This document shows positions 48,076 to 64,000 of a DNA stretch of 64,000 bases, one piece after another; position 1 is the stretch's first letter; each line of letters begins with the position of its first letter. The DNA lies in contig CABYDZ010000001.1 in assembly GCA_902517885.1 (NCBI GenBank), positions 48,567 to 112,566 of the forward strand, given 5' to 3'. The stretch is from an uncultured Pelagibacteraceae bacterium (GTDB lineage: Bacteria; Pseudomonadota; Alphaproteobacteria; Pelagibacterales; AG-422-B15). Below the pieces are notes generated by a model, which was given only the letters and a program-made list of their open reading frames with translations, did no database searches and was not told the DNA's origin. A program made the translations under genes and the position numbers.

Positions 48076-48731
48076 GTGACGTAAATTCTGGATGTAAGAT
48101 TTTCATGTTTCATACTGTAAATATCTGCACAAAACATGGAACTGCGTAAATCATCTAAGCTATAGTCTTTCATCGTATTATGGAAACTTTTCATCATTCC
48201 AAGAAATGACACCATACAATCTTGGCCATCTTTCTGGCTTAAAGGTATATGTTTAACGCACATATTAATTAAGTTTGCGATGAATGATTGAATATAAAAG
48301 TCAACCAAATCATCAAAGGCAATATGAAATTTAATTCCTGCTTGAGCAATACAGACTGGAAAAGCAGTCTCATTATTTATTGTATAGCCCCAACTCTCAG
48401 ACATGATTTTTCTGAAGGCGTCACCCATTTTGAGCGTTTCAAGCTGACGTTCCTTGGATGAGCAACTTGCAAGCACTAATTCATTTACATAAATTCCATC
48501 ATAGGTAGCCTTGATAAAGATATACTCATTTCTGCATGTTCCCTCAAAGAGAATACTTTTAATAAATTCCAATACGTCATTTTTATTTTTGATAAGCTTA
48601 TCATCAATTAAAGCCTCGAGACCATGTGAATATGCGTATGAACCAATAGGAAATGAAGACGAAAACCAAAGATGTAAAATTTGATGAGATTTTAAATCTG
48701 ATAAGTTTTTACTTTTAATGCTTGTGACCAT
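48072..48731 (-). CDS. ureF: Urease accessory protein UreF
   Basis: [27 protein letters not shown]; start moved to MVTSIK to limit overlap with ureE. Confidence 0.9.
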
Positions 48732-49158
48732 GCGTTCTTCCCATACCGTAAGCCCCTCCTTCAGGATTAAATTGTTCAATCACAGATTTTGTCTGCCCCC
48801 CAAGTCTTCTCACCATATCCTCAATTATATGGTCACTTTGTATTAGAATTCTTGTAGCTTCAATCTGACAGGGGATATGTCTATTCCCAATATGCCATAT
48901 TAATTTATTTAAATCTTCTGACTTGATCTCAATTAAGTTTTCTTTTTTTGATTTTATAGTAATTAATTTTCCACTCTCAAGTTTGAACGCTTGATTACTC
49001 AGGACTGATCTCATCTCTTCAAGATCAACAAGAAATTCATGACCTTTGTCAGAAACTAACTTTTTGCGTCGCATGAATCTCTCCTCATAAGATAGCGAAA
49101 TTGTATCAACCTCTTCAGAGGAATCACAGTTACTTAATATTAAATTACAAATTTCCAT
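48715..49158 (-). CDS. ureE: Urease accessory Ni chaperone UreE
   Basis: WHIGNRH, FNPEGGAYG, His-containing tail HGHKH. Confidence 0.93.
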   Translation of the reverse strand: MEICNLILSNCDSSEEVDTISLSYEERFMRRKKLVSDKGHEFLVDLEEMRSVLSNQAFKLESGKLITIKSKKENLIEIKSEDLNKLIWHIGNRHIPCQIEATRILIQSDHIIEDMVRRLGGQTKSVIEQFNPEGGAYGMGRTHGHKH

Positions 49159-49160
49159 AA

Positions 49161-50867: not shown

Positions 50868-51172
50868 TTAATTTTTCCCATGACTTTTTTATTAAACCCA
50901 AATATTTTTTTTAGTCCCTGTATTTCTATAAGCTCAACATCTCTTGTTTGCCCAGGTTCAAACCTTACTGCGGTTCCAGATGAAATGTTTAGTCTCATGC
51001 CTAAAGATTTCTTTCTATCAAATTCAAGACTTTCATTTACTTCAGCAAAATGATAGTGGCTACCGACTTGAATTGGACGATCACCAGTGTTGGAGACTTT
51101 CATTGTCAAACTCACTAAATCTTTATTTAAAATTATTTCACTGTCACTTGTAATTATTTCTCCTGGAATCAT
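50864..51172 (-). CDS. ureB: Urease beta subunit
   Basis: [29 protein letters not shown]. Confidence 0.97.
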
Positions 51173-51179
51173 ATAATTC

Positions 51180-51482
51180 TTACCTTATGGGTTTATGTAC
51201 CGTGACTAACTTTGTTCCATCTGGAAAAGTTGCTTCTGTCTGCACTTCGGCAATCATTTCAGCAACTCCTTCCATACAGTCATCTTTTTTTAATACATGT
51301 GCTGCACTTTCCATTAATTCAGCTACAGATTTGCCGTCCCTTGCACCTTCAACAACATAATCAGAAATAATTGATACGGCTTCAGGGTAATTTAATTTAA
51401 CGCCACGGTCTAACCTCTTTCGAGCGACTATTGCAGCCATGCTGACCATCATTTTATCAATCTCTCTTGGAGAAAGCTTCAC
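51180..51482 (-). CDS. ureA: Urease gamma subunit
   Basis: GTG start (GTGA overlap with ureD stop) gives MKLSPRE; KLNYPE and [14 protein letters not shown]. Confidence 0.95.
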
Positions 51483-52276
51483 GCAGCACCCCACATGTAA
51501 GGAATTTTACCATTCATCATGATTGATACGATATTTTTTGTAAATTTTTTTAAATAATAGTTATTAGATGAAATACTTCTTATTATTATCTTACCATCCC
51601 ACTCTGAAATACCAGTAGTTATACTTTTTTCATCATGTATATTATCTTTTAATACAGTATAAAATTTATTCATCTCTGAACCGAGTATTATTATTGTATT
51701 AATTGCAATATTATCGTTAAGCATAAATTTACTTTTCCGCATTCTTTTTATATTATCTTCAAAGCCATTGATTTCAAGGTGAGCAATTTTATTATCATTA
51801 AATATTTTCCATCGATCAGAGTAGTAACCTTTTTCAATCGTTTCATGCATTGCTGATCTTCCATAAACAACTGTTTCACAGAAAAATAAATTTGAATTAT
51901 TCAAAAGATTGATATCAATTTGACGTCTTAGGTTGCAGTTATCAAAGAGGATTGTTTCATTTGGTATCCAAAAAAGAGTACTGTTATCAATGTTAATTGT
52001 ATATTTAAGTTCAGCCGCATCTCCATATCCACTGTATACCTTCTCTGCAGCCTGACTTGTAGTGAGCATATGTGTATTGTGTAAATCTATATTGATATTA
52101 AACTTATCTCCACTTGTTACACCCCCAGATGTATTAACTAAAACTATTTGAGACAAATTAGAGTAGGATTGAGGTAGTAAAGCTTTAAGGCATCCTTGCT
52201 GATATAATCTTTCAACATCATTATTTATAAACTCTGCATCAATTGTGCCTACAGATTTTTGAAGATTTACTATCAT
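51479..52276 (-). CDS. ureD: Urease accessory protein UreD
   Basis: [44 protein letters not shown]; ORF may extend to 52303. Confidence 0.9.
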
Positions 52277-52477
52277 GAAATTATCATAGTGTTTTAATTT
52301 CAAGTTGACAAATAATTGTCATTTATTTTTATCACTAAAATTACAGATACTAATTAGTAATATAAAAATTACGTTTAAATATTTTTTTTGAAGATGTCAT
52401 GTTGGCAAGTGTAAAGATTCGTATCACTAATTTTTTTAAGAAATTATGTAGCAGTTAAAAAAATGAAAGGACGAATA

Positions 52478-53743
52478 ATGATCAAGAAAATTATAGTTGT
52501 TATGTCATTTTTCTTTTTTAGTATCACTGCGTATGCAGATACTATCAAAGTTGGCATATTACACTCGCTGTCGGGTACGATGGCAATCTCAGAGACAACG
52601 TTAAAAGATACAATGTTAATGTTGATCGATGAACAAAATGAAAAGGGCGGTATTCTGGGAAAAAAACTGGAAGCAGTAGTCGTTGATCCTGCTTCAGATT
52701 GGCCACTTTTTGCTGAAAAAGCTCGAGAACTAATAACTGTCAATGATGTTGATGTAATGTTTGGCTGCTGGACTTCTGTGTCTAGAAAGTCTGTATTACC
52801 CGTAATTGAAGAACTTAACGGATTACTTTTTTATCCAGTTCAATATGAGGGTGAAGAAAGCTCAAAAAATGTATTTTATACCGGAGCCGCTCCAAACCAA
52901 CAAGCTATACCAGCTACTGATTACTATCTAGAAGAACTAGGCATTGAAAAGTTCGCATTACTTGGAACTGACTATGTTTATCCTAGAACAACAAACAAAA
53001 TTCTAAATCAATATTTAATTGATAAAGGAATTCCTGAATCTGATATTTTTGTAAATTACACACCTTTTGGTCACTCGGATTGGTCGAAAATTGTTGCTGA
53101 TGTTGTAGCACTTGGGGCTGATGGAAAGAAGGTAGGTGTTATTTCAACTATTAACGGTGATGCAAACATTGGATTTTATAAAGAACTTGCAGCTGCAGGC
53201 GTGAACGCTGAAGACATACCAGTTGTCGCGTTCTCAGTTGGTGAAGAGGAATTATCCGGACTTGATACAAAAAATTTGGTTGGCCATCTAGCTGCGTGGA
53301 ATTATTTTCAATCAGCTGAATCCGATTTAAATACAGCATTTATCAAAAACTGGAAAAGCACTATGGGATCAGAAAGAGTTACTAATGACCCGATGGAAGC
53401 GCACGTGATTGGATTTAACATGTATGTAAAAGCAGTGGAAAAAGCTGGAACTACTGATGTAGATGCAGTTAGAGAAGCTATGTATGGAATTACAGTTCCA
53501 AATCTCACGGGTGGAACTGCAGAAATGCTCCCAAATCATCATCTCTCTAAACCTGTTTTAATAGGTGAGATCCTTGAGGATGGTCAGTTTGATATAATTA
53601 GCCAAACGACCGAGGTTCCAGGAGATGCATGGACAGATCACTTAGTAGAGTCAGCTGTTTTAAAATCAGATTGGCAAAGCTTAGGTTGTGGGATGTATAA
53701 TACTTCGACCAGCAGCTGTGTTCAGTTAAAGTCTAACTACTAA
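52478..53743 (+). CDS. urtA: Urea ABC transporter substrate-binding protein
   Basis: IKVGILHSLSGTMAISE, FGCWTSVSRKSV, YPVQYEG, GAAPNQQ, DYVYPR; start at MIKK after AAGGA. Confidence 0.95.
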   Translation: MIKKIIVVMSFFFFSITAYADTIKVGILHSLSGTMAISETTLKDTMLMLIDEQNEKGGILGKKLEAVVVDPASDWPLFAEKARELITVNDVDVMFGCWTSVSRKSVLPVIEELNGLLFYPVQYEGEESSKNVFYTGAAPNQQAIPATDYYLEELGIEKFALLGTDYVYPRTTNKILNQYLIDKGIPESDIFVNYTPFGHSDWSKIVADVVALGADGKKVGVISTINGDANIGFYKELAAAGVNAEDIPVVAFSVGEEELSGLDTKNLVGHLAAWNYFQSAESDLNTAFIKNWKSTMGSERVTNDPMEAHVIGFNMYVKAVEKAGTTDVDAVREAMYGITVPNLTGGTAEMLPNHHLSKPVLIGEILEDGQFDIISQTTEVPGDAWTDHLVESAVLKSDWQSLGCGMYNTSTSSCVQLKSNY

Positions 53744-53756
53744 TTTTAACCTAAAT

Positions 53757-53797
53757 AAAACGCTGTAAAGAATAGTTAATATTCTTTATGGCGTTTT
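53757..53797 (+). terminator. 18-bp stem-loop (two G-U pairs) ending in a U-run between urtA and urtB
   Basis: AAAACGCTGTAAAGAATA-GTTAA-TATTCTTTATGGCGTTTT. Confidence 0.65.
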
Positions 53798-53803
53798 TAA
53801 ATT

Positions 53804-55816
53804 ATGAAAATTAAATTTTATATAATTTTTCTGTATGTTTTTTTTGTAAATCTACCAGCAGTTGCTCACCATGATGAATTCAATATATTCTTAATAGAAA
53901 ATTCAGAGAATATAATTAAGAGTTCAGCAAAAACTGTTGATTCTATACTAAGAGACATACAAAGTTTTGATGATGAAATTGTTTCAAGATTTTTAGAATT
54001 GTGGAAATCGAAGAGTCTCTACTATATAAAAGATACGAAACAAGTAGTTATAGTTAATGAAAATGAAGAGTCACTTGACGCCTTAGAAATAGATGGTCTT
54101 ACTAGGATCGGCAATTACAGCAAAAAAGAAATCAAAAAGATTAAACCCAACAGTGGAGTAAGAGCAAAAATAGACTCTATTTTAGTAAAATACCAAATAT
54201 CTAATTCAGATATTAATGTACGACAAAAAAGCATAGAAAGCTTAAAAAGAAATATCCGGCCTGAACATTTGGAAGTGTTACAAGATGCTTACATAAATGA
54301 GTCAGATGCAGAACTAAAAACTGTTATTGATCGATTGCTAAAATTTGCAATTGTTAAGTACTCCGACTCGAATGATAAAAAATTAGAAATAATCGAGTCT
54401 TTTAAAGGCGATACTGCGATCGAAATAAGGGCTTCTCTAAATCAACTCCTCAATTCTTCAGAAGTGAAAGTCGGCATCTCTCTTCCTAATAATAAAAATA
54501 TTGCTAGGGTAATTGTGCCTGGTTTTACAATCAAAAATAGTAATGGAACATCGGGTACAACTAATTTTTTTAATGAAGATGTTGAGATATCAATTAATGA
54601 TGCATATGACAAATTATATGCAGATAATCTAGTTTATAAAAAAAGGATTACCCAAGAAGAATTAAAGAAAATATTAGAACAAAATATTAGCGGAGATACT
54701 ATTGGAGGATATTCTATTAGTTCACTAGACAATGAACAATCTCGCATTGCTGCCTATAATAAATTAGTTGAAAATAATTTAGCACCTCCTTTTATTTCTG
54801 AAAATAAAATTAATGAAGAAGTAAACAAATTTATATTTTATTCGATTTACAATGAAACTTCTTCTGAAGTAACAAATGCCGCACTAAATACTCTAGCTAG
54901 TATAAATTTTAGAGTTCAGATCTATAAATATATTGACTTACTTATTGATGGTTTAAGTCTTGCATCAATCTATTTTCTTGGAGCAATTGGTTTAGCGATT
55001 ACTTTTGGTGTAATGAGAGTAATCAATATGGCTCATGGTGAATTTATCATGATGGGTGCCTATACGGGGTATGTTGTTCAACAATTTATAAGTAACCATA
55101 CACTGTCACTTTTAGTTGCACTTCCCCTCGCATTTATAATTACATTTATAGCTGGAGTGATCATGGAAAGACTCGTTATACGTCATTTGTATCGTAAACC
55201 ACTTGATACATTACTGGCCACTTTCGGGATCAGTATTGCATTACAACAAATTGCAAAGAATATCTTCGGAACACAAGCAAGACCACTTACATCTCCATCG
55301 TGGCTTGATGGATCGCTCAGTCTGAGCGACGATCTATCGATCAGTTATATAAGAATTGCCATATTTATTTTGAGTCTAATATTTCTGGGTTTGTTGCTCT
55401 TTGTTATGAATCGTACCAGACTTGGATTGGAGACTCGTGCAGTGACCCAAAATCCAGTGATGGCCTCCAACATGGGAATTAATCCTGAAAGAATAAATAT
55501 GTTAACTTTTGGCTTTGGTTCAGGAATTGCAGGAATTGCAGGAATTGCTATTGGACTTTTTTCTAAGGTTACATCTGAGCTTGGGTCTGAATATATAGTT
55601 CAGAGCTTTATGACAGTGGTTGTTGGAGGAGTGGGCAATATATGGGGCACATTAGCGGGAGCCTCACTAATCGGGTTCCTTCAAAAATTTATAGAATGGT
55701 TCAATCCATCTAATACTCTCGCAGCGCAAACTTATATGATCATCTTTATTATTTTATTTATACAATTTAGACCAAAAGGGATAGTAGCCCTTAAAGGGAG
55801 AGCAGCTGATGACTAA
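53804..55816 (+). CDS. urtB: Urea ABC transporter permease with large N-terminal periplasmic extension
   Basis: GLAITFGVMRVINMAHGEFIMMGAY, RKPLDTLLATFG, FIQFRPKG. Confidence 0.92.
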   Translation: MKIKFYIIFLYVFFVNLPAVAHHDEFNIFLIENSENIIKSSAKTVDSILRDIQSFDDEIVSRFLELWKSKSLYYIKDTKQVVIVNENEESLDALEIDGLTRIGNYSKKEIKKIKPNSGVRAKIDSILVKYQISNSDINVRQKSIESLKRNIRPEHLEVLQDAYINESDAELKTVIDRLLKFAIVKYSDSNDKKLEIIESFKGDTAIEIRASLNQLLNSSEVKVGISLPNNKNIARVIVPGFTIKNSNGTSGTTNFFNEDVEISINDAYDKLYADNLVYKKRITQEELKKILEQNISGDTIGGYSISSLDNEQSRIAAYNKLVENNLAPPFISENKINEEVNKFIFYSIYNETSSEVTNAALNTLASINFRVQIYKYIDLLIDGLSLASIYFLGAIGLAITFGVMRVINMAHGEFIMMGAYTGYVVQQFISNHTLSLLVALPLAFIITFIAGVIMERLVIRHLYRKPLDTLLATFGISIALQQIAKNIFGTQARPLTSPSWLDGSLSLSDDLSISYIRIAIFILSLIFLGLLLFVMNRTRLGLETRAVTQNPVMASNMGINPERINMLTFGFGSGIAGIAGIAIGLFSKVTSELGSEYIVQSFMTVVVGGVGNIWGTLAGASLIGFLQKFIEWFNPSNTLAAQTYMIIFIILFIQFRPKGIVALKGRAADD

Positions 55817-56978
55817 TTCAATAAATGATTTACTAGCTCGACACACATTAATTTTTACAATAGTTGTTATTATATTTTCTCTGTTTATAACTTTTTTTAG
55901 TGAACCTTACGGAAACGGATTAATATCTACTAGTTTTGTCAAAACTTTAGGCAAAACTGTTTGTCTATGCATAATTGCTCTGGCAATGGATGTGGTATGG
56001 GGTTATTGCGGAATTCTGTCTCTAGGGCATTTCGCCTTTTTTGGACTTGGTGGTTACATGATTGGAATGTGGCTAATGTATGAGCGAACAGCCATTATTG
56101 TTCAGGAGGCTGCCACTAATGAGTTGCTTCCATTAACCGAAACCGAATTATCAAATGCCATTGGAAACCAGATTTTTGGAGTTGTCGGTGGCTATGAAAT
56201 ACCATCCATATGGATGTTTGCAGATAGTCTTGGTTTACAATTGATTTTGGTTATTGCAGTACCTGGTATTCTTGCATTTATATTTGGGTGGCTTGCATTC
56301 AGGTCGAGAGTAACTGGAGTTTATCTCTCAATTTTAACTCAAGCATTAACTTTAGCTCTATCACTATATTTATTTCAAAATGACAGTGGTCTAAGGGGTA
56401 ATAATGGCCTCTCAGGTTTGCAGAATATTCCTGGCATTGAGTATTTAGGACAAGAGGTCATATCCATAGGGTTTTTTTGGGCAAGTTGTATTTTTCTAAT
56501 ATCTATTTTTTTACTTTTTCATTCACTTATGAAAAGCAAGTTTGGATTAATTATTACATCAATAAGAGATAACGAAACACGAGTAAGGTTCTTAGGGTAT
56601 AATGTCGAAATATATAAATTATTTATATTTGTGTTAACAGCAATAATCTCAAGTATTGCTGGTGCTCTTTATTACCCTCAAGCAGGTATAATTAATCCTG
56701 CAGAGCTTGCGCCTATTGCATCGATCTATCTCGCTGTATGGGTTGCTATTGGAGGAAGAGGAAAATTGTATGGAGCAATCATTGGTGCCGCTTTTGTTTC
56801 ATTATTTTCGTCATGGTTTACTGGTGGACAAGCACCCGATATTCCTTTGGGCATATTTACTATAGAATGGGTGAATTGGTGGACGGTGTTGTTAGGGTTT
56901 GGATTTGTATTAATCACAATTTTTAGTGAAAATGGAATAATTGGTTTTTTAAGAAATATATTTGTTAAGGAAAAATGA
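55809..56978 (+). CDS. urtC: Urea ABC transporter permease
   Basis: WGYCGILSLGH, FRSRVTGVYLSILTQA, IRDNETRVRFLGY, WVAIGGRG. Confidence 0.93.
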   Translation: MTNSINDLLARHTLIFTIVVIIFSLFITFFSEPYGNGLISTSFVKTLGKTVCLCIIALAMDVVWGYCGILSLGHFAFFGLGGYMIGMWLMYERTAIIVQEAATNELLPLTETELSNAIGNQIFGVVGGYEIPSIWMFADSLGLQLILVIAVPGILAFIFGWLAFRSRVTGVYLSILTQALTLALSLYLFQNDSGLRGNNGLSGLQNIPGIEYLGQEVISIGFFWASCIFLISIFLLFHSLMKSKFGLIITSIRDNETRVRFLGYNVEIYKLFIFVLTAIISSIAGALYYPQAGIINPAELAPIASIYLAVWVAIGGRGKLYGAIIGAAFVSLFSSWFTGGQAPDIPLGIFTIEWVNWWTVLLGFGFVLITIFSENGIIGFLRNIFVKEK

Positions 56979-57757
56979 ATACTTTATTGAAAGTTGAAAA
57001 AATCTCGGTTTCATTTGATGGCTTTAAAGCTATTAATAGTTTGAGTTACAGCATTGGTAAAAATGAACTCAAAGCGATTATTGGACCTAATGGAGCTGGA
57101 AAAACTACCTTTATGGATATAATTACGGGCCAAACTAAACCAGATGAAGGTAAAGTATTATTTGGTGAACGAAGCGTATGGCTTGAAAGTGATCAAAAAT
57201 ATCAAGTCGTTTGGGATGAAAATCTTCTAATGAAAAGTGAGTCTCAAATAGCATTACTAGGTATAGGAAGAAAATTTCAACGTCCTACTGTATTTGAGCT
57301 AAAAACAGTATTTGAAAATTTATTTATATCCATGAAGAAAAATAGAAGTCCTTTCAGTGTTTTATTCCAAAAATTAAATAGAGATGAAAAAAATCTAATA
57401 GAAAAAATACTAGGTGAAATTAGTCTTAAAAATGAACAAGATAGAATTGCTGGCGAGTTATCACACGGTCAAAAGCAGTGGTTAGAAATAGGAATGCTAT
57501 TAACTCAAGAACCAAAGCTATTATTAATTGATGAACCAGCAGCTGGAATGACTTCTAATGAAAGAAGACAGACAGTTGAGATTCTAAAAAAATTATCTGC
57601 AGATAAATCAGTTATTGTTGTTGAGCATGATATGGAATTTGTAAAAGATCTTGAATGTGAGGTTACTGTATTGCATGAAGGTTCAATTCTTTCAGAGGGT
57701 TCTATAGAACACGTGTCCTCTAATAATGAAGTAATTGAGGTATATCTAGGAAGATAG
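56975..57757 (+). CDS. urtD: Urea ABC transporter ATPase
   Basis: GPNGAGKT, GIGRKFQ, LSHGQKQWLEIGM, EVYLGR. Confidence 0.94.
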   Translation: MNTLLKVEKISVSFDGFKAINSLSYSIGKNELKAIIGPNGAGKTTFMDIITGQTKPDEGKVLFGERSVWLESDQKYQVVWDENLLMKSESQIALLGIGRKFQRPTVFELKTVFENLFISMKKNRSPFSVLFQKLNRDEKNLIEKILGEISLKNEQDRIAGELSHGQKQWLEIGMLLTQEPKLLLIDEPAAGMTSNERRQTVEILKKLSADKSVIVVEHDMEFVKDLECEVTVLHEGSILSEGSIEHVSSNNEVIEVYLGR

Positions 57758-57759
57758 TC

Positions 57760-58455
57760 ATGATTGATATAAGTAATTTGAATTTTTACTATGGTTCTTC
57801 TCAGATATTATTTGATGTTTCACTCAAAGCGAAAAATAAAGAAATTACTTGTTTAATGGGTTCAAATGGAGTTGGTAAAACATCTTTATTAAAGTTTTTA
57901 TCAGGAATCTATCCTTCAAAGTCAGGAAATTATCTTTTTGAAGGGGATAATGTAACTAACTTTAGCTCCCACCAACTTGCTAAGAGAGGAGTAGGGTATG
58001 TTCCTCAAGGCCGTTTTATATTTCCATTATTATCTGTCAAAGAGAATTTAGAAACTGGTTTTGCATGTTTAAAACGTGATGAACATTTCATACCTGATGA
58101 AATTTTTGATCTTTTTCCAGTATTGAAACAAATGATAAATAGAAGAGGTGGAGATTTATCAGGAGGTCAACAACAGCAATTAGCAATTGCAAGAGCAATG
58201 ATTTCAAAACCAAAATTACTACTTATGGATGAACCAACCGAAGGAATACAGCCAAACATCATCCAGCAAATTGGAGAAGTCATAAAATATTTAAAAGATG
58301 AGCAGGGAATGACCATACTATTAGTTGAGCAATATTTTGATTTTGCATTTGATTTAGCAGATTATATCTATGTCATGAAAAGAGGAAAAATTATTACTGA
58401 ATCAAAGAAAGAGAGTCTGGATAAATTGTCGTTTAAAAATGAAGTATCAATTTGA
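57760..58455 (+). CDS. urtE: Urea ABC transporter ATPase
   Basis: GSNGVGKT, YVPQGR, LSGGQQQQLAI, DEPTEGIQP, LVEQY. Confidence 0.94.
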   Translation: MIDISNLNFYYGSSQILFDVSLKAKNKEITCLMGSNGVGKTSLLKFLSGIYPSKSGNYLFEGDNVTNFSSHQLAKRGVGYVPQGRFIFPLLSVKENLETGFACLKRDEHFIPDEIFDLFPVLKQMINRRGGDLSGGQQQQLAIARAMISKPKLLLMDEPTEGIQPNIIQQIGEVIKYLKDEQGMTILLVEQYFDFAFDLADYIYVMKRGKIITESKKESLDKLSFKNEVSI

Positions 58456-60486
58456 ATCTCTAGTCAAGCAAAGTAAAAAGGCATTATCGAGAGCGCTTTC
58501 TTCCATAGCATTTAATCGTCCACTTTTACCAGCATGACCACCAACTAAATTCATTTTCATTAATATTGGATTATCTGAAGTACTGTTTTCTCTGAGTTTT
58601 GGAACATATTTTGCCGGTTCATAATACTGAACTTGAGAGTCATATAGACTGGATGTGACCAATACAGCGGGATAATTTGAAGGCTTAATATTGTCGTATG
58701 GCGAATAGCTTTTAATATAATTATATTCATCTTTATTCGCTGGATTACCCCATTCTTTATACTCAAAAGTAGTCAGGGGAATTGTTTCATCTGACATAGT
58801 GGTGACCACATCCACAAAAGGAACTGCTGATATAATACCTTTATATAAATCTGGTTCCATATTAATGATTGCACCCATTAACAGACCGCCGGCACTTCCA
58901 CCCATCGCATATACATTTTTAGCATTGCCATACCCTTGTTTGATTAAAGATTTGGTTGCATCAATAAAATCATAAAATGTATTCTTTTTATTAAAAATTT
59001 TACCATCATCATACCACTGTCGCCCCATTTCAGAACCACCTCGGATATTGGCGACAGCAAAAACGAAACCCCGATTGAGTAGGGGTAAGATGGACGTTCT
59101 AAAAGCTGCATCAATTATAATGCCATAAGAACCATAGCCATAAATAAGGATGGGAGCTTGAGATAAGTCAGTTCCTTTTTTATATACTAGTGATACAGGA
59201 ACTTTTGTATCATCACGGGCGGTAATTTTAAGTCTTTCAACCTCGTATAGATTTTCATCGTAATTGTTTACAGGCTGCTGCCATGCTAATTCACTCTTAC
59301 CTGACTCAATATCCTCTTTGAATATTGAACTAGGTTTCTTTGGACTCGAATACCCATAGTAAAATTCAGTATCAAGGTACTCATTATTGGTCGCTAAATA
59401 ACAAGAAAAGGCAGGGTCACTAAATTCAATATAATTCCTATCGAGTGTTTCTCTGTTAATTTTTACTATCTTGGGCAGACCGTCTTCTCTTATCTCTAAA
59501 TAAAGATATTGAGGAAAAGTGACAAAATCTTCAATTAAAATAGCATCATCATGTTCAACTACAGTTTCCCACTCATTAAAATTATTAATTTGACTGATCG
59601 TGAATTTTAAAATTGAGAAGTTTTTTTTATTTTTTGCATTACTGCTGACATAGAAACACTCTGGTGTGTCTTCAATGGAATAAAGATGTTTATCGGATCG
59701 TTTGAGTACACAAAATGGTTGACTGAGTTCCTCATCTAAATCAAGCAGCCACGTCTCTGAAGACTCAGTTTTACTGGTATAAATATTCAAATATTTCTTT
59801 GTCCGCGATTCATAAATATGAAGATGAAATTCCGGGTCATTTTCCTCATAGATTAAAACATCTTCTTTAGCATCAGTTCCAATTTTGTGTTTAAAAACCT
59901 TATTTTCTATCAAAGTAACAGGATCTTTTTGAGCATAGTAAAATGAAGTATTTTTCTTATCCCAAACAATGCTCCCAGAGCTTCTCTCAACTTTACTGTC
60001 TATAATTTTGCCGGTCGTTAAATTTTTAACTTTTATGTTGTATTCTCGTCGACCCGATAAATCTTCTGCATAAGCAATTAAAAGATTATTTGGTGATGGA
60101 GTTATTGACGTAATATTTATATAATCTAAATTCTCAGCCAGTGCATTTACATCAATAACTAACTCTTTAGTCCCATTGAGCTCTCGATAGTATGTTTTAT
60201 ATTGTTGTTCAGAGTTAATTTCAGAGTAATAGAGATAATCTCCATATTTAATTTTCATTGAAACTTCTTTTGGTGGTATGAAACTAACTAATTCTTCATA
60301 AATTGTTTTTCGGCAATCATTATTTTTTTTAAACCAATCTTCTAAGTACTGATTTTCTTCTTCTAAATAAGAAATAATTTCTGGATTTTTACGAGTATCA
60401 TCTCTGAGCCAATAATAATCATCAACACGATTATCGCCATGTGCAATATGGATTTTAGGAATTTTTTTTGGCTGAGGCGGTTTCAT
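58447..60486 (-). CDS. ptrB: Oligopeptidase B (S9A)
   Basis: HGDNRVDDYYWLRD, YGYGSYG, GGSAGG, DSQVQYYEPAKY, GHAGKSGR. Confidence 0.95.
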   Translation of the reverse strand: MKPPQPKKIPKIHIAHGDNRVDDYYWLRDDTRKNPEIISYLEEENQYLEDWFKKNNDCRKTIYEELVSFIPPKEVSMKIKYGDYLYYSEINSEQQYKTYYRELNGTKELVIDVNALAENLDYINITSITPSPNNLLIAYAEDLSGRREYNIKVKNLTTGKIIDSKVERSSGSIVWDKKNTSFYYAQKDPVTLIENKVFKHKIGTDAKEDVLIYEENDPEFHLHIYESRTKKYLNIYTSKTESSETWLLDLDEELSQPFCVLKRSDKHLYSIEDTPECFYVSSNAKNKKNFSILKFTISQINNFNEWETVVEHDDAILIEDFVTFPQYLYLEIREDGLPKIVKINRETLDRNYIEFSDPAFSCYLATNNEYLDTEFYYGYSSPKKPSSIFKEDIESGKSELAWQQPVNNYDENLYEVERLKITARDDTKVPVSLVYKKGTDLSQAPILIYGYGSYGIIIDAAFRTSILPLLNRGFVFAVANIRGGSEMGRQWYDDGKIFNKKNTFYDFIDATKSLIKQGYGNAKNVYAMGGSAGGLLMGAIINMEPDLYKGIISAVPFVDVVTTMSDETIPLTTFEYKEWGNPANKDEYNYIKSYSPYDNIKPSNYPAVLVTSSLYDSQVQYYEPAKYVPKLRENSTSDNPILMKMNLVGGHAGKSGRLNAMEESALDNAFLLCLTRDSN

Positions 60487-60523
60487 TATTTTCTAATATG
60501 TTACTAGCATTTTTTCAATTTTA

Positions 60524-60567
60524 TGGTGCCCCCAACCTGTACTGACCAGGTATCTACGCATTACCAA
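60524..60567 (-). pseudogene. Displaced 3' half of a tRNA-Thr(GGT) gene (att junction of the integrated element)
   Basis: Minus strand TTGGTAA-TGCGT-AGAT-ACCTG-GTCAGTA-CAGGT-TGGGGGC-A-CCA; tRNA similarity stops at the 5' edge of the anticodon loop and no 5' half is present. Confidence 0.8.
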
Positions 60568-60651
60568 TTGTTTGTGGTTTACTTTCTAGGGTTTTCACGC
60601 TAAGGTCAACTATATGTTTGAGAGGCAAAAAAGGCCAGTAAATATGGCTAT

Positions 60652-60720
60652 TTTACAACATTTTCCTAGTTTTCCATTGTTTCAGACGATTACAAATATT
60701 TGGTGTAAATATGGTGTAAA
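60652..60720. repeat. Putative integrase arm-type binding sites
   Basis: TGGTGTAAA direct repeat at 60701-60709 and 60712-60720 (11-bp period); inverted one-mismatch copy TTTACAACA at 60652-60660. Confidence 0.55.
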
Positions 60721-60817
60721 GTTAGAATTGGTTAAAAATGGCGGGTTTTCTAGACCCGATACGAACCCTCTAAATAGGCCGGGTTTGTACATAGATATGA
60801 TGTTGTCTCTCCACAAT

Positions 60818-60891
60818 GCCTCCATGGTGAAATGGAATCATACGTCCTTGGTAAGGACGAGTTCCCTTGTCAGTAAAGGGTGGAGGCACCA
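60818..60891 (+). tRNA. tRNA-Thr(GGT) or tRNA-like RNA with non-canonical T-arm, overlapping the integrase RBS and start codon
   Basis: GCCTCCA TG GTGA AATGGAA TCAT A CGTCC TTGGTAA GGACG AGTT CCCTT GTCAGTA AAGGG TGGAGGC A CCA; all four stems pair (one G-U in the D-stem) and CCA is encoded. Confidence 0.85.
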
Positions 60892-62114
60892 TGCCTAAAG
60901 AAACACAGAAGTACAAAGCTCAGAAATCCAAGATCACCGCTACGCTGGCAGACAAACTCAAACCACAGAAGAAGTCTCCACGTCCAGGAGACAAAGGACC
61001 TAGATATAACGTTAATCGACTCTGGGATACCGATATTAAGGGCTTTTATCTTGAGTGTGGTACTGGTGGCACCAAGACGTGGTATCTACGCTATTCAAAT
61101 AAATTTCAAAGGAAACAGACCTATAAGATTGGTCGTTATCCAGCAATCACCGTACCGTCAGCCAGGAAGGAGGCTTTAATAAAGCTTGGTGAGGTAGCAC
61201 AGGACATTGATATCCAGAAAGAAAAAAGACAGCAGATATCACAGGGTTCAGTTGCAGAGTTCAGTAAGAAATATCTGAAGATGCTCCCTGATTATAAATC
61301 TAAACACCGAGAGGTTTGGTGTCATGAGAAACGTATTGTTCCATCTATTGGACACTTGAAACTGAAGGAAGTTGATAGGGAAGTCATCATGACAATGATG
61401 AAGAAATATGATCACTTGGGGGCAGACTGGGTGCGGACCAAAGTCATGCTACATAAATTCTTCAAAGAGATGATGTTAAATAAGCGGATTTCATACAATC
61501 CGGTAGCCGATATTCCTACACCTAAAGACAAGAAATATAAGCCACGTACAGTCGTAATGACACCAGAACAGGTACTAAAGGTTAGAGAATTTTTAATTCA
61601 GGAAGTAGAAACACACCCAATACACTGTTATTACCTGGGACTACTTCTAGCAATTGGAGCCAGACCTGGTGAGTTGATCAAAATAACTTGGGATCAAATC
61701 GATCTTAAGAATGCGACGATGGGTAACTTGTCAATTGGGGAAGGTGCTGGAACAAAGACTGGCGATAAAGACATACCCATATCAGATGTTGCATTGAAGT
61801 ATTTCAAGGAACTATACAAACATACTGGTACTTTCAAGTGGTGTTTCCCTGGACTTAATCCCACTAAACACATGTCCTCATACAGAGATTTCTACGACAA
61901 AGTTAGAGCGTATGCTGGCATAGGCAAAGTACAGATGAGAGATTTTAGAAGAACTTTTATCACTGCTGGTGCAAAGTCCTCAGATGATATCCACGCAGTA
62001 TCACAGATTGTGCAACACTCAGATATTAATATCACTGCTAAAGTTTATGATCAGGTAGATGATAAGAGGCAACGTAAAGCGTTGAAGAAGATAAAAGGTG
62101 TGGCCTTACTATGA
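60891..62114 (+). CDS. Tyrosine recombinase/integrase with N-terminal arm-DNA-binding domain
   Basis: LWDTDIKGFYL...KTWYLRY...KIGRYPAITVPSAR arm domain; catalytic GARPGE, TKTG, RDFRR, QHSD...VY; GGAGG 4 nt before ATG 60891. Confidence 0.92.
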   Translation: MPKETQKYKAQKSKITATLADKLKPQKKSPRPGDKGPRYNVNRLWDTDIKGFYLECGTGGTKTWYLRYSNKFQRKQTYKIGRYPAITVPSARKEALIKLGEVAQDIDIQKEKRQQISQGSVAEFSKKYLKMLPDYKSKHREVWCHEKRIVPSIGHLKLKEVDREVIMTMMKKYDHLGADWVRTKVMLHKFFKEMMLNKRISYNPVADIPTPKDKKYKPRTVVMTPEQVLKVREFLIQEVETHPIHCYYLGLLLAIGARPGELIKITWDQIDLKNATMGNLSIGEGAGTKTGDKDIPISDVALKYFKELYKHTGTFKWCFPGLNPTKHMSSYRDFYDKVRAYAGIGKVQMRDFRRTFITAGAKSSDDIHAVSQIVQHSDINITAKVYDQVDDKRQRKALKKIKGVALL

Positions 62115-62278
62115 TCGAACTCATAATGCTTAAGATGTGTTTTGAGAACGGTGAACTAGAGAAGTATATTGAGGAACATACAAACGTTGCCACCGTAATC
62201 TACGCCAGCTATGATGAGGAAGAAAGTACAATTGAGAGCGATAGAAAATGCTACTATATTTCTATCGAACGCTGGTGA
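62111..62278 (+). CDS. Small acidic hypothetical protein (55 aa), not in the ORF track
   Basis: ATGA overlap with the integrase stop; MIELIMLKMCFENGELEKYIEEHTNVATVIYASYDEEESTIESDRKCYYISIERW; ends 4 bp before the next ATG. Confidence 0.5.
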   Translation: MIELIMLKMCFENGELEKYIEEHTNVATVIYASYDEEESTIESDRKCYYISIERW

Positions 62279-62282
62279 AAAT

Positions 62283-63152
62283 ATGAAACGAGTATTAGAC
62301 TTCACCGTTGCAAACATTGGCCACCCAGAGAGTTTTCAAAAAACCTTGCTTGAGCCATTAGCCGTAATGGGTATTGAGTTATCTGAGATTGGTAAACACT
62401 CAGCACAATCAGCTTTTGATCACTTTGTTCATAGGTTTTATGAACTGTATGACATTCACCAATACGACCAATATCCTGAAGCCAAGAAGCTCGATCAGTT
62501 TGACAAGAAGATTGAAAGCTTGTGGAAAGTTGTAGCTGAAGAAAATCGACGAGATCTTGAGGCTATGCAAGAGCTAGAGAAAGCTTTATTGAAAGCTCAG
62601 GACGAGATAAGAAAAATGAAACGTCACCGTGAAGAAAACCCAAAGAGTGATACTGTATATCCTCCAGGTGTAGTTATGCTTTGTCAGCATTTAATACTTT
62701 ACTGGGATGACTGGATGCGGAACTTTATGGTGAAACATAAACCAGGGGCATCAGTTAAAAGTTACTTCTATCAAATTGATAACCAGATGACCTTCGAATT
62801 ACAAAAACATCTTCTTGAAGGCGTGGATGTTAATAGTAATCCTGGCGGAGCATTTATACAGAGAGCATTTTATAATTACTGGGGTATTGATTTTACAACA
62901 GCCCAAATGAAAACCCTGATCCTGAAAGCGTGGGAGAGTAAACCCACCAAAGACGAATTAAATATTAAGCCACACATACCGTTAGATATTTGGTTGAGAC
63001 ACCAGAATTTAAGTATGGATCAAGTGGTAGAGGAAGAAGTAGCTGGTAGTTTTAAGTTGCAGCAGTTTTCAGCATCAAATGAATATATGGCATCACTGCA
63101 AGAGACTATCGATAACCTCCGAAAGTGGAGAGAAGAAAAAAATAAGAAGTAG
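62283..63152 (+). CDS. Hypothetical protein with central coiled coil
   Basis: Long ORF; start at MKRVLDF preferred (the track start at 62211 overlaps the small ORF); no family recognised. Confidence 0.7.
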   Translation: MKRVLDFTVANIGHPESFQKTLLEPLAVMGIELSEIGKHSAQSAFDHFVHRFYELYDIHQYDQYPEAKKLDQFDKKIESLWKVVAEENRRDLEAMQELEKALLKAQDEIRKMKRHREENPKSDTVYPPGVVMLCQHLILYWDDWMRNFMVKHKPGASVKSYFYQIDNQMTFELQKHLLEGVDVNSNPGGAFIQRAFYNYWGIDFTTAQMKTLILKAWESKPTKDELNIKPHIPLDIWLRHQNLSMDQVVEEEVAGSFKLQQFSASNEYMASLQETIDNLRKWREEKNKK

Positions 63153-63177
63153 ATCCAGAAATTATCCAGTCAACTTT

Positions 63178-63205
63178 TTGACCGCATAAAAACAGTTAGT
63201 AAAGT
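63178..63205 (+). promoter_or_regulatory. Possible sigma70 promoter for the excisionase-like operon
   Basis: TTGACC-16 nt-TAAAGT in the only sizeable gap between the element's ORFs. Confidence 0.3.
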
Positions 63206-63239
63206 TGTTAGTGTTTCACGAGTATTCTATCTATAGAGT

Positions 63240-63587
63240 ATGGAAAACAAAACACCAGAACTTGATATTGATGTTTATGCTCTCATCCCTGAGCTACTCG
63301 ACCTAGAACAAATTCATCATTTGTACGGGCTGGCACCAGGTACGATTAGAAGAGAGAGATGGCAACAAAAACTAATTAAAGAACGAAAAATTAAAGCTGA
63401 GGATGTAAAGAAAATTAATACCTCAGGTTTTGGCTTTTTGTATGAACCTGTCCTTATGTACGGGAAACTTTATTACAGACGAAAAGACGTAGAGCATTTC
63501 ATAAAGACCTGCCAAGAAAAATCACCAATGGAACAACTGCGACTTGCATCAATAGCTGGCAGAGCGCGCGAAGGTAAGAGTGTATGA
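63240..63587 (+). CDS. Excisionase/AlpA-like (MerR-fold HTH) DNA-binding protein
   Basis: LLDLEQIHHLYGLAPGTIRRERW helix-turn-helix and GKLYYRRKDVEHFI wing-helix pattern; near an integrase. Confidence 0.6.
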   Translation: MENKTPELDIDVYALIPELLDLEQIHHLYGLAPGTIRRERWQQKLIKERKIKAEDVKKINTSGFGFLYEPVLMYGKLYYRRKDVEHFIKTCQEKSPMEQLRLASIAGRAREGKSV

Positions 63588-64000
63588 TTGATAAAGCTAT
63601 ACGATTAGAGCGGGAACTAAAACGAAGTGGAAAGATTGATAAAAATTTATCTAAAATCTCAACTGATGAATTTCCAGAAAAAGTTTTTCCAAAGATTGAA
63701 CGCGGCCCCGAGGCATATAACGCCAGTCTTATTGATTTAATCGACAACATACGCAGCACTACACCTGGACCAGAGGGTAAACAATTTGTGCTACCTAAAT
63801 ATACAGACGTGCCAACACAGAAAATTAAACATTTTAAACCTCCAACGACCGCAGAGATTTTGAGAATGTTCAATGATAATTTTACCTTAGGTGGCACTAA
63901 CGACTTTGAAGAATTTAAAACAAAACTATTCAATCGAGAATATAACGACCTAGAAATCGACCTTACAGACTACCTCGATTATGTGTTTGATGGTGAGGAA
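63584..64000 (+). CDS. Hypothetical protein, 3'-truncated by window
   Basis: ATGA overlap with previous stop; 139 open codons MIDKAIRLERELKRSG...DYVFDGEE. Confidence 0.7.
   Translation, partial: MIDKAIRLERELKRSGKIDKNLSKISTDEFPEKVFPKIERGPEAYNASLIDLIDNIRSTTPGPEGKQFVLPKYTDVPTQKIKHFKPPTTAEILRMFNDNFTLGGTNDFEEFKTKLFNREYNDLEIDLTDYLDYVFDGEE

What the first reader, a model, noticed from the sequence alone, without database searches (positions are those of the whole stretch)
60818..60893. A complete tRNA-Thr cloverleaf forms the 5' leader of an integrase: the acceptor stem holds the SD and the CCA end supplies the A of ATG
Seen: a 74-nt cloverleaf with all four stems paired, U8, A14, G18G19, A15-U48, U33, anticodon GGU, A37 and encoded CCA. 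Its 3' end reads TGGAGGCACC-ATG. GGAGG in the 3' acceptor strand is the only obvious SD for the integrase, and A76 is the first base of the start codon. Established: G1-C72, C2-G71, G35 and U36 are bacterial ThrRS identity elements and all are present. E. coli thrS is translationally repressed through tRNA-Thr anticodon-arm mimics in its leader. Inference: folding occludes the RBS, and 3' tRNA maturation would destroy the start codon, so one transcript yields either tRNA or integrase. This could be a tRNA-based switch coupling recombination to tRNA processing, ThrRS binding or anticodon-nuclease cleavage. It could also provide a replacement for the isoacceptor the element disrupts. I know of no described example of this arrangement.
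Basis: partly seen in the sequence, partly recalled or inferred. Interest (0 to 1): 0.92.

Follow-up and report, generated by a model that had tools for sequence, protein, structure and literature searches.

The report
Integrating element brings its replacement tRNA
A 9-kb mobile element has cut a marine bacterium's threonine (GGU) tRNA gene in two and carries its own complete copy fused to the front of its integrase gene, a trick described in 2024 for mycobacterial phages and seen here in a new host and a new kind of element.

Summary
The cloverleaf is real. Window 60818-60891 matches Rfam tRNA at 40.5 bits (cut-off 29) when searched narrowly. It has anticodon GGU and an encoded CCA whose last A starts the integrase ATG. 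ARAGORN's default mode and a wide Rfam scan miss it because the T arm is unusual.

The context explains it. Relatives carry an intact tRNA-Thr(GGU) on the minus strand beside the S9 peptidase gene. In this genome that gene is split in its anticodon loop by a 9,170-bp element with an 8-bp repeat (TTACCAAT). Neither junction rebuilds a tRNA, and no other tRNA-Thr(GGU) was found in the 85%-complete assembly. The element has paired arm-type sites, a P4-type integrase and a primase-helicase. Empty-site and circular-junction contigs exist in a marine run.

The cloverleaf is therefore the element's replacement tRNA. This is "tRNA-dependent lysogeny" (Guerrero-Bustamante & Hatfull 2024) in a non-phage element.

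The fusion to the integrase gene is the new part. One relative has the tRNA 21 nt upstream with its own SD and no CCA. Protein N-termini in four other integrase clusters show the tRNA's 3' end 0-6 nt from the start, and one shows the same overlap. A regulatory switch is plausible but untested.

The parts
58447..60486 (-). Host flank: S9 prolyl-oligopeptidase-family peptidase gene. In relatives it lies next to the intact tRNA-Thr(GGU).
   Evidence: ORF. Pfam PF02897 (288 bits) and PF00326 (199 bits). Relatives match window 60480-60568 (query 1-89; the first 7 nt of this gene, the intergenic stretch and the tRNA 3' half) at 84-96% identity; L002 matches the gene as a whole at 92% nt identity.
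60524..60568 (-). Displaced 3' part (nt 30-74, including CCA) of the host tRNA-Thr(GGU) gene; left junction of the insertion.
   Evidence: 100% identical over 45 nt to the intact tRNA of relative L002. No tRNA match in Rfam on 60505-60640. The 5' part (nt 1-37) lies at G000:C1:118333..118297, outside the window.
60561..60568 (.). 8-bp common core TTACCAAT (ATTGGTAA in tRNA sense = A31 plus the anticodon loop). It is repeated at the other end of the element, L011 9798-9805.
   Evidence: Overlap of the two host halves. Sequences. Joints in run X4 with 8 letters fitting both sides. The same core is present in the circular form L013.
60569..64000 (+). Left 3.4 kb of a 9,170-bp integrative element. 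It runs on to G000:C1:118296, i.e. 5.7 kb beyond the window end. All genes lie on the + strand.
   Evidence: Period 9170 in the joints. Outside the window: an AEP primase + DUF5906 helicase protein of 809 aa at L011 5912-8341.
60611..60627 (+). 17-nt block TATATGTTTGAGAGGCA conserved between the two attP regions. Role unknown.
   Evidence: Alignment A2. Three exact matches in viral contigs were chance hits with no integrase.
60701..60721 (+). Pair of putative arm-type integrase sites, TGGTGTAAAT / TGGTGTAAAG (P' arm). A matching pair sits at the other end, L011 9720-9740.
   Evidence: 6 matches in L011 against 1.29 expected; 0 of 200 shuffles reach 6. Both pairs are conserved in L013.
60818..60891 (+). 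Element-borne complete tRNA-Thr(GGU) with encoded CCA; the finding itself.
60882..60886 (+). GGAGG in the 3' acceptor strand, 4 nt before the ATG. It is the only SD-like sequence available to the integrase gene.
   Evidence: The 16S 3' end carries CCTCC. Host acceptor strands read GGGGG or GGGAG instead.
60891..62114 (+). [quoted passage not shown] Its first base is A76 of the tRNA.
   Evidence: Pfam PF13356 (60.2 bits) and PF00589 (56.4 bits). phrog_1 integrase. 55-80% identical relatives in 9 clusters.
63240..63587 (+). 115-aa protein with a weak helix-turn-helix match; a possible excisionase/AlpA-like regulator, not established.
   Evidence: PF12728 HTH_17, E = 0.0034, 18.1 bits, below the cut-off of 27. 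No PHROG match.

Best explanation
The cloverleaf is a functional replacement tRNA carried by a 9,170-bp integrative element. The element has a tyrosine integrase with an arm-binding domain, a primase-helicase and about ten small ORFs, and no virion genes were detected.

**Shown**
- The element sits inside the host's tRNA-Thr(GGU) gene. The exchange lies within an 8-bp core that is the anticodon loop plus A31.
- attP shares only those 8 bp with the gene, so both junctions hold half tRNAs.
- The element carries a complete tRNA of the same anticodon 249 bp from the core, between the P' arm sites and int.
- The same architecture occurs in a related element caught in circular form.
- The empty site and the circular junction both exist in nature.

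**Inferred**
- The element tRNA is expressed, charged by ThrRS, and decodes ACU/ACC, which make up 48% of Thr codons, in place of the broken gene.
- The tRNA and int form one transcription unit, so integrase cannot be made without the tRNA being transcribed first.
- In this copy, 3' maturation of the tRNA removes the integrase start, which keeps integrase low.

This is the logic of tRNA-dependent lysogeny.
For: **The host gene is split and not rebuilt**
- 9 of 9 relatives' loci carry an intact tRNA-Thr(GGU). In the 6 same-genus loci it lies beside the peptidase gene (query 1-89 matched).
- In G000, nt 30-74 and nt 1-37 of that tRNA lie 9,170 bp apart, and each is 100% identical to L002.
- Rfam gives 17.3 bits (half only) at the right junction and nothing at the left.

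**No other tRNA-Thr(GGU) was found in G000**
- ARAGORN lists 30 tRNAs, and the only Thr among them has anticodon TGT.
- A tRNA-Thr(GGU) covariance model finds only the candidate, the two halves and other isoacceptors.

**The cloverleaf looks functional**
- RF00005 scores it 40.5 bits.
- All 21 pairs are kept and 15 of 21 pairs covary.
- G1-C72, C2-G71, G35 and U36 are present (their role as ThrRS identity elements is recalled).
- CCA is encoded, as in 30 of 30 host tRNAs.

**The gene is likely needed**
- ACT is 38% and ACC 10% of Thr codons.
- Five relatives (two of them single-contig genomes) hold only 29-32 tRNA matches each.

**It is a real mobile element**
- Paired arm-type sites lie on both sides of the core.
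- The integrase domains are present.
- L013 joins the right end, core and left end in one contig and carries tRNA-Thr(GGU) before an integrase that is 56-58% identical.
- Run X4 has one contig that skips the 9,170 bp (depth 41.6) and one that joins end to start (depth 3.2, 0 differences over 201 nt).

**Precedent**
- PMC10865867 (abstract and sections 5, 6, 10, 11 read): cores of 8-17 bp, no tRNA reconstruction, a phage tRNA of the same isotype, shown by genetics to be required.
Against: - There are no RNA, charging or genetic data. No RNA run was listed for this sequence.
- The element tRNA departs from the near-universal G53-C61 and T54/A58. ARAGORN's default mode rejects it.
- The genome is 85% complete, so a second tRNA-Thr(GGU) on unassembled DNA cannot be excluded.
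- tRNA-Thr(UGU) is present and might read ACU.
- Only two elements were seen at the DNA level (G000 and L013). The others are known from protein N-termini alone.
- No promoter-like site was found upstream of the tRNA in G000.
Confidence: 0.8

Rival explanations
1. **Regulatory fusion.** The tRNA is the obligatory 5' leader of the integrase mRNA and its acceptor strand is the SD. Folding hides the SD and 3' maturation destroys the start. Integrase is then translated only from rare unprocessed or unfolded precursors, or in response to tRNA processing, ThrRS or nuclease state.
For: - There are 0 nt between CCA and ATG, so there is no room for a promoter or another SD.
- The 16S rRNA has CCUCC, and GGAGG is the best SD match among the element's 14 putative starts.
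- The host acceptor strands read GGGGG or GGGAG, while the element's reads GGAGG.
- 16 protein sequences in 4 of 9 other integrase clusters (55-76% identical) were called from the TTG in the T loop. They read SVK[G/D]GGT followed by 0, 1 or 2 residues before the start. P0029 shows GGGT|MPK, the same junction as G000.
- 30 of 30 host tRNAs encode CCA, and no RNase Z reaches its cut-off. Trimming from downstream is therefore the likely 3' maturation route; this step is inference.
Against: - L013 (= cluster P0008) has a 21-nt spacer, its own SD, a GTG start and no CCA.
- Only in-frame spacings can be seen through protein N-termini, so the sample is biased.
- Five of the ten clusters (1, 2, 5, 6 and G000's own apart from its DNA) give no such information.
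- The 4-nt SD-ATG spacing is short.
- The 141-nt context folds no better than shuffles, z = -0.03.
- There are no expression data.
- The abutment could be mere compaction in a 9-kb element of a streamlined host.
Confidence: 0.25
2. **Relic.** The cloverleaf is a decaying copy of a tRNA gene picked up by imprecise excision, or an old attachment junction. It is no longer functional and sits next to int by history only.
For: - tRNA followed by int is the ordinary layout of tRNA-borne islands (recalled; Islander abstract, PMC4383910, seen in the search listing only).
- The element tRNA is 79% identical to the tRNA of another family of the same order but only 66% identical to its present host's, which is consistent with capture elsewhere.
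- It has non-canonical T and D arms, and ARAGORN's default mode misses it.
Against: - All four stems are intact, through compensatory changes.
- The anticodon loop is identical in all six tRNAs aligned; CCA is encoded in five of the six and absent in the L013 element.
- The genuine host tRNAs of this order share the odd T loop in 9 of 9 loci, so the oddity is lineage-typical, not decay.
- The host gene is destroyed, which puts the copy under selection.
- A tRNA of the same anticodon is kept in a relative whose integrase is only 56-58% identical.
Confidence: 0.05
3. **Another role.** The element tRNA serves some purpose other than replacement: a decoy or substitute against an anticodon nuclease, or a codon-usage supplement. 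On this view its match to the target gene is incidental.
For: Phage tRNAs have been proposed to counter tRNA-degrading defences. This is raised in the discussion of PMC10865867 (section 11 read).
Against: The anticodon equals that of the disrupted gene in 2 of 2 elements seen at the DNA level, out of about 30 tRNA genes per genome. No defence or nuclease gene was recognised in the element.
Confidence: 0.05
4. **Assembly artefact.** A free circular element was wrongly joined into the host contig of a metagenome-assembled genome.
For: The genome has 30 contigs and 85% completeness. Circular-form contigs exist.
Against: Both junctions lie in one 202,774-bp contig. The two host halves are exactly complementary parts of one tRNA and share only 8 bp, which is too short for an assembler to join by mistake. 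The contig that skips the element in run X4 has its joint at exactly these points, with the same 8 letters fitting both sides.
Confidence: 0.02

Closest known systems
tRNA-dependent lysogeny of actinobacteriophages (Fionnbharth, LeBron, Gaia and others; Guerrero-Bustamante & Hatfull, mBio 2024, PMC10865867). The same paper cites prophage Lj965 of Lactobacillus johnsonii. PMC12429752 mentions Sinorhizobium prophages resembling Mesorhizobium phage Lo5R7ANS.
   Same: - A tyrosine integrase with an arm-binding domain.
- attB inside a host tRNA gene.
- A common core of about 8-17 bp (8 bp here, 8 bp in Gaia).
- No tRNA rebuilt at either junction.
- The element encodes a tRNA with the same anticodon.
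- The host has a minimal tRNA set.
   Different: - The element is not a recognisable phage: no structural genes, 9.2 kb.
- The host is a streamlined marine alphaproteobacterium.
- The tRNA is fused to the integrase start (0-21 nt). In Fionnbharth it overlaps gene 37 on the opposite strand, and in Gaia it lies downstream of int (sections 6 and 10 read).
- The requirement for the tRNA is not tested here.
Classical tRNA-gene islands with P4-type integrases (Islander database, PMC4383910, listing/abstract only; Williams 2002 on anticodon-loop, T-loop and 3'-end sublocations, recalled)
   Same: A P4-like integrase (PF13356 + PF00589), a tRNA gene directly upstream of int in the same orientation, and a crossover in the anticodon loop.
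   Different: In classical islands the tRNA next to int is the regenerated host gene (host 5' part plus element 3' part), and a 3' fragment marks the far end. Here the tRNA next to int is wholly element-borne. It points the opposite way to the host gene, and the host gene stays broken.
Marine phage satellites / VEIMEs (Eppley et al. 2022 preprint, 10.1101/2022.07.26.501625; passages read)
   Same: A small integrative element in a marine oligotroph with a tyrosine integrase, a primase/helicase and possibly an AlpA-like HTH. Whole-element-sized contigs of 9,204-9,775 nt are seen for relatives.
   Different: There is no evidence here for packaging, concatemers or a helper phage. The word 'tRNA' does not occur in that preprint's main text. 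Its datasets are supplements, which I could not see.
E. coli thrS operator (tRNA-Thr anticodon-arm mimics next to the SD/AUG) and tRNA-mRNA co-transcripts such as thrU-tyrU-glyT-thrT-tufB (both recalled)
   Same: tRNA-Thr-shaped RNA immediately 5' of a translation start, and a tRNA and an mRNA on one transcript.
   Different: The thrS operator mimics only the anticodon arm and is not a tRNA gene. In the tufB operon about 100 nt separate thrT from tufB. Here a complete tRNA gene overlaps the start codon.
Mitochondrial tRNA punctuation (recalled)
   Same: A tRNA abuts a coding sequence without a spacer, so tRNA-end processing would define the mRNA end.
   Different: The setting is bacterial. Here the CCA is encoded and shares its A with the AUG, so precise 3' maturation would remove the start rather than create a translatable leaderless mRNA, unless the cut falls after C75.

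Membership tests
tRNA-dependent lysogeny / integration (PMC10865867) | Tyrosine-integrase recombination between attP and an attB that overlaps a host tRNA gene | tested here: met
   The integrase domains are present. The host tRNA is split with an 8-bp repeat. A contiguous attP is seen in L013. Empty-site and circle joints are seen in run X4.
tRNA-dependent lysogeny / integration (PMC10865867) | Common core so short (about 10 bp) that no functional tRNA is rebuilt at either junction | tested here: met
   The core is 8 bp. RF00005 gives 17.3 bits over 50 nt at the right junction and no match at the left. ARAGORN finds nothing there.
tRNA-dependent lysogeny / integration (PMC10865867) | [quoted passage not shown] | tested here: met
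   G000 element: GGU, RF00005 40.5 bits. L013 element: GGU, 60.3 bits.
tRNA-dependent lysogeny / integration (PMC10865867) | The disrupted host tRNA is single-copy and needed | tested here: inconclusive
   No other tRNA-Thr(GGU) was found in G000, but the genome is 85% complete. Four near-complete genomes of the sister family match at one place each. Five relatives hold 29-32 tRNA matches each. ACT+ACC make up 48% of Thr codons. Essentiality was not tested.
tRNA-dependent lysogeny / integration (PMC10865867) | The element tRNA is required for viable integrants | not testable with these tools
   This needs genetics: integration-proficient constructs with and without the tRNA.
tRNA-dependent lysogeny / integration (PMC10865867) | The element is a temperate phage | tested here: not met
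   PHROGs matched only the integrase and the primase among the 10 element proteins scanned. Pfam adds only AEP-TOTE and DUF5906. The closest phage integrase is 26.9% identical. The mechanism fits; the label 'lysogeny' does not.
P4-type tyrosine integrases | [quoted passage not shown] | tested here: met
   PF13356 and PF00589 are both above cut-off. R258, K289, R353, H376 and Y386 are invariant in 11 of 11 aligned sequences. Their assignment as catalytic residues is recalled.
Bacterial elongator tRNA (Rfam RF00005) | Cloverleaf above the family's gathering score | tested here: met
   40.5 bits against 29. It was missed in the 801-nt scan and by ARAGORN's default mode.
Bacterial elongator tRNA (Rfam RF00005) | Canonical T arm: G53-C61 and a T54-A58 loop of the form TTCRANY | tested here: not met
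   U53-A61 and loop GUCAGUA. The same loop occurs in 9 of 9 genuine host tRNA-Thr(GGU) genes of the order, so it is a lineage trait.
Phage satellites / VEIMEs | Packaging in helper-phage particles, as concatemers | not testable with these tools
   Only gene content and size fit.

The most novel reading that the evidence does not exclude
**The fusion as an expression device.** The tRNA-integrase fusion may be a conserved expression device of this element family. Integrase would be translated only from the precursor of the replacement tRNA, using the acceptor strand as its ribosome-binding site. A cell could then never make integrase without first transcribing the replacement tRNA, and tRNA maturation would continually destroy the integrase message. 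Alternatively, a cut after C75 would release a leaderless AUG message, as in mitochondrial tRNA punctuation.

**Turnover of the host gene.** Over evolutionary time such elements may replace the host's tRNA-Thr(GGU) gene outright. That would explain two observations:
- Congeneric genomes that share 4 of 4 other compared tRNAs at 100% identity carry tRNA-Thr(GGU) genes only 64% identical, both with non-canonical loops.
- The tRNA's flanks vary between these genomes.
Probability: 0.3. Interest if true: 0.8.

Novelty: new variant of a known kind. Interest (0 to 1): 0.6.

Why it matters
- **Reach of the strategy.** Disrupting a target tRNA and supplying a replacement has been shown so far by genetics in actinobacteriophages. 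This finding extends it to a small non-phage element in one of the ocean's streamlined bacterial lineages, where each tRNA gene is single-copy and its loss would be costly.
- **A compact test system.** attP, tRNA and int lie within 1.6 kb. That makes it practical to ask whether a tRNA gene can act as the leader and ribosome-binding site of a protein gene.
- **Annotation.** Lineage-specific odd tRNAs are missed by default tRNA finders, here including the host's own tRNA-Thr(GGU) in five genomes. Genomes may then be scored as lacking a tRNA, and islands as lacking a target.
- **tRNA evolution.** If the elements also drive turnover of the host gene, this would be a mechanism for the rapid evolution of one tRNA among otherwise frozen ones.

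Tried and rejected
**More family members at the DNA level**
- The integrase was sought in 401 genomes of the order; only G000 matched, 1 of 401.
- The 11-row integrase alignment was sought in the 60 genomes of the family; only G000 matched, 1 of 60.
- Viral contigs with the integrase, with the two-sequence integrase alignment and with the primase gave no relative.
- Genome contigs with the alignment gave none.
- The 17-nt attP block found 3 viral contigs, all without an integrase.
- The arm-site pattern found 120 genome stretches and 47 viral stretches. tblastn over all 184 loci then held showed no relative, apart from one 20%-identical hit in L090.
- The single metagenome scan gave L013 and the C-terminal fragment L014.

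**Promoters**
- The scan found no site upstream of the tRNA in G000: 7 sites in the region against 5.0 expected, all elsewhere.
- In L013 one 9-of-12 match (636-665) overlaps the tRNA's 5' part, but L013 has 6 sites against 8.5 expected. I do not use it.

**Other checks that led nowhere**
- Folding of 141 nt of context was uninformative, z = -0.03.
- No RNA holder was listed for the element, so expression could not be examined.
- Run shares were small (0.09-0.18). I use only the joints and pieces.
- A search for half-tRNA relics near the intact tRNAs of 14 relatives' loci found none.
- The idea that the minus-strand fragment and the cloverleaf were the inverted ends of a small element was dropped once the 5' half turned up 9.2 kb away.
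- Supplements of the papers were not opened. Datasets S3, S5 and S6 of the VEIME preprint may list this family and its targets.
Full report
**1. The observation**

Window 60818-60891 (+) reads GCCTCCA-TG-GTGA-AATGGAA-TCAT-A-CGTCC-TTGGTAA-GGACG-AGTT-CCCTT-GTCAGTA-AAGGG-TGGAGGC-A-CCA. The final A is the A of ATG at 60891, which opens a 407-codon frame.

- ARAGORN with default settings reports no tRNA in the whole window. It finds the cloverleaf only in mitochondrial mode, as Thr(ggt) at exactly these coordinates.
- An Rfam scan of 801 nt at E<=10 shows no tRNA. The same scan on 101 nt, where the filters are laxer, gives RF00005 at 40.5 bits (cut-off 29), E = 6.5e-8, over the full model.
- The 74-mer folds at -28.7 kcal/mol, z = -3.18.

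So the cloverleaf is real. Its T arm (U53-A61, loop GUCAGUA) and a G10-U25 pair explain why the default tools miss it.

**2.

The window is G000:C1:48567-112566 of a 1.28-Mb, 33% G+C assembly in 30 contigs. The assembly has a permuted tmRNA and 30 tRNAs by ARAGORN, with only Thr(TGT) for threonine. These features suggest a streamlined marine alphaproteobacterium of the SAR11 kind. That is my inference; no name was given.

- A 421-nt query around the finding matched same-genus relatives only over its first 89 nt.
- At that place 9 of 9 fetched loci carry an intact tRNA-Thr(GGU); in the 6 same-genus loci it lies on the minus strand beside the S9 peptidase gene. All nine have the same odd T loop, GTCAGTA.
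- In G000 this gene is in two pieces. Nt 30-74 lie at window 60568..60524 and nt 1-37 at C1:118333..118297. Each piece is 100% identical to relative L002, and they overlap by ATTGGTAA.
- The insertion is 9,170 bp counting one copy of the core.
- Neither junction rebuilds a tRNA: RF00005 gives 17.3 bits over 50 nt at the right junction and nothing at the left.

**3. The inserted element**

All its ORFs lie on the + strand.

- The integrase has PF13356 and PF00589.
- An 809-aa protein combines an archaeo-eukaryotic primase domain with DUF5906.
- One small protein has a sub-threshold HTH_17 match.
- Nothing else matched Pfam or PHROGs, and no virion gene was seen.
- The closest phage integrase is 26.9% identical.
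- Two tandem copies of TGGTGTAAAT lie on each side of the core, against 1.29 matches expected. This is the layout of arm-type sites in an attP.

**4. Independent evidence for the element and its mobility**

- A 2,864-nt marine contig (L013) encodes an integrase 56-58% identical to this one. It holds right end, core and left end in one piece, i.e. the circular attP form. Both arm-site pairs and the core are conserved.
- Laying contigs of four marine runs on the locus gave two joints in run X4. One contig skips exactly 9,170 bp, with 8 letters fitting both sides (empty site, depth 41.6). One contig joins the element's end to its start (circle or tandem, depth 3.2) and has no difference over 201 nt.
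- Related circular-form pieces appear in run X1.

**5. What the cloverleaf is**

It is the element's own tRNA-Thr(GGU).

- It is not a hybrid. Its acceptor stem (GCCTCCA/TGGAGGC) differs from the host's (GCCCCCA/TGGGGGC) on both strands.
- It points the opposite way to the host gene and lies 249 bp inside the element.
- A covariance model built from tRNA-Thr(GGU) genes finds no other copy in G000. It returns only the candidate, the two halves and other isoacceptors.
- L013 also carries a tRNA-Thr(GGU) between attP and int (ARAGORN default; RF00005 60.3 bits).
- Across the two element tRNAs and four host tRNAs, 99.2% of pair cells are paired and 15 of 21 pairs change on both sides. The shape is under selection.
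- The element tRNA encodes CCA, like 30 of 30 host tRNAs.
- ACT and ACC make up 48% of threonine codons.
- Five relatives (two of them single-contig genomes) hold 29-32 tRNA matches each. A preprint reports 30-36 per complete Pelagibacter genome (10.64898/2026.04.03.716430, passages read).

**6. Comparison with what is known**

This is the logic published as tRNA-dependent lysogeny (PMC10865867; abstract and sections 5, 6, 10, 11 read). The common core is 8-17 bp, no tRNA is reconstructed, and a phage tRNA of the same isotype is needed for viable lysogens.

That paper expects the phenomenon outside actinobacteriophages. A later paper mentions it for Sinorhizobium prophages (PMC12429752, passages read).

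The differences here are the element type (no phage genes), the host, and the position of the tRNA. In Fionnbharth the tRNA overlaps gene 37 on the other strand, and in Gaia it lies downstream of int.

I found no report of a tRNA fused to an integrase start in three full-text searches. That is a limited search.

**7. The overlap itself**

In L013 the tRNA has a canonical T loop and no CCA. A 21-nt spacer with GGGGAGGG precedes a GTG start. The exact overlap is therefore not universal.

Ten integrase clusters at 55-100% identity exist, with 175 further member sequences. Among the 77 sequences I could read, 16 in 4 clusters were called from the TTG inside the T loop and so reveal the DNA upstream. 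G000 itself translates as GRVPLSVKGGGT|MPK.

| Cluster | N-terminal read-through | Gap between tRNA end and start |
|---|---|---|
| 3 (P0029) | RIPLSVKGGGT, then MPK | none (the same junction as G000) |
| 4 (5 sequences) | SVKGGGT-I-MPK | 3 nt |
| 8 (P0009) | SVKDGGT-RL-MGK | 6 nt |
| 9 (9 sequences) | SVK[G/D]GGT-R-LGK | no ATG at all |

The tRNA's 3' end therefore lies 0-6 nt from the start in at least five lineages. In those lineages only the acceptor strand can supply an SD.

The sample is biased, because only in-frame spacings show up this way. Four other clusters are silent on the point.

No RNase Z reaches its cut-off in G000, and a PolyA_pol-family enzyme is present. Together with universally encoded CCA, this suggests exonucleolytic 3' trimming, which would consume the integrase message. 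This step is inference.

**8. Verdict**

The replacement reading is well supported (0.8). The switch reading is open (about 0.25) and now has a defined test set.

This is a new variant of a known kind. Its interest is moderate to high for people who work on mobile elements and on streamlined marine bacteria.

**9. A side observation that may matter**

- Five same-genus genomes (91-100% complete) lack the G000-type tRNA. They hold a second type with loops AATAGTA and AGCGTAA.
- That second type scores 67.5 bits with my model and 50.9 bits with RF00005. ARAGORN default misses it in 5 of 5.
- The two types are 47/74 identical. In contrast, Thr(UGU), Tyr, Gly(UCC) and Val(GAC) are 100% identical between G000 and G019.
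- The flanks of the tRNA differ among these genomes.
- This pattern would fit replacement of the host gene by element-borne copies. However, no relic halves were found within 1.5 kb.

Noticed in passing
L002-L010 (tRNA at about 1472-1618 in each); window 60524-60568: The genuine tRNA-Thr(GGU) of this order has a non-canonical T loop, GUCAGUA (G54 and G58 instead of T54 and A58), in 9 of 9 loci from two families. It still scores 45.5-59.1 bits with RF00005.
   Followed up: partly
L185-L189, positions 1501-1574 (1498-1571 in L189): Five same-genus genomes carry a second, very different tRNA-Thr(GGU) with D loop AATAGTA and T loop AGCGTAA. It is 47/74 identical to the G000-type host gene. ARAGORN default misses it in 5 of 5, although RF00005 scores it 50.9 bits. 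Four other tRNAs are 100% identical between G000 and G019. Annotation pipelines may report these genomes as lacking this tRNA.
   Followed up: partly
window about 47460-60523 (C1:96026-109089) and C1:118349-120163: The surroundings of tRNA-Thr(GGU) vary within the genus. In G019, G041 and G044 the tRNA's 3' side continues at C1:96025, so about 13 kb including the S9 peptidase gene is not there. In G024 the gamma-glutamyltranspeptidase gene is missing on the other side. This looks like a tRNA-anchored variable region.
   Followed up: no
window 60614-60898 (+): A 94-codon ORF (MFERQK...) runs across the attP arm sites and the tRNA. Its first codons lie in a 17-nt block (60611-60627) conserved with L013. 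The apparent conservation is most simply DNA-level (binding sites), and the ORF is probably not a gene.
   Followed up: partly
window 60300-61100 versus 60805-60905: Method note. The same Rfam tRNA match (40.5 bits, above the cut-off) is lost when 801 nt are scanned and is found when 101 nt are scanned. A blank from the wider scan is not evidence of absence for odd tRNAs.
   Followed up: yes
proteins P0003, P0021, P0059, P0008, P0065: Relatives of the integrase sit on contigs of 9,291, 9,204, 9,252, 9,775 and 9,741 nt, the size of the whole element, which suggests free circles or complete assemblies. Others lie on contigs up to 29,532 nt, presumably integrated.
   Followed up: no
anticodon stems: window 60843-60859; L013 about 675-691: Both element tRNAs have C31-G39 next to the anticodon loop (C-TTGGTAA-G). 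The targeted host gene has A31-U39 (A-TTGGTAA-T), and the attP core reads A-TTGGTAA-G. Whether this spares the element's own tRNA from its integrase is unknown.
   Followed up: no
L014 1-193: A third metagenome contig holds only the last 62 residues of a 76%-identical integrase plus 1.7 kb of downstream element sequence. The tRNA side is not on the contig.
   Followed up: no
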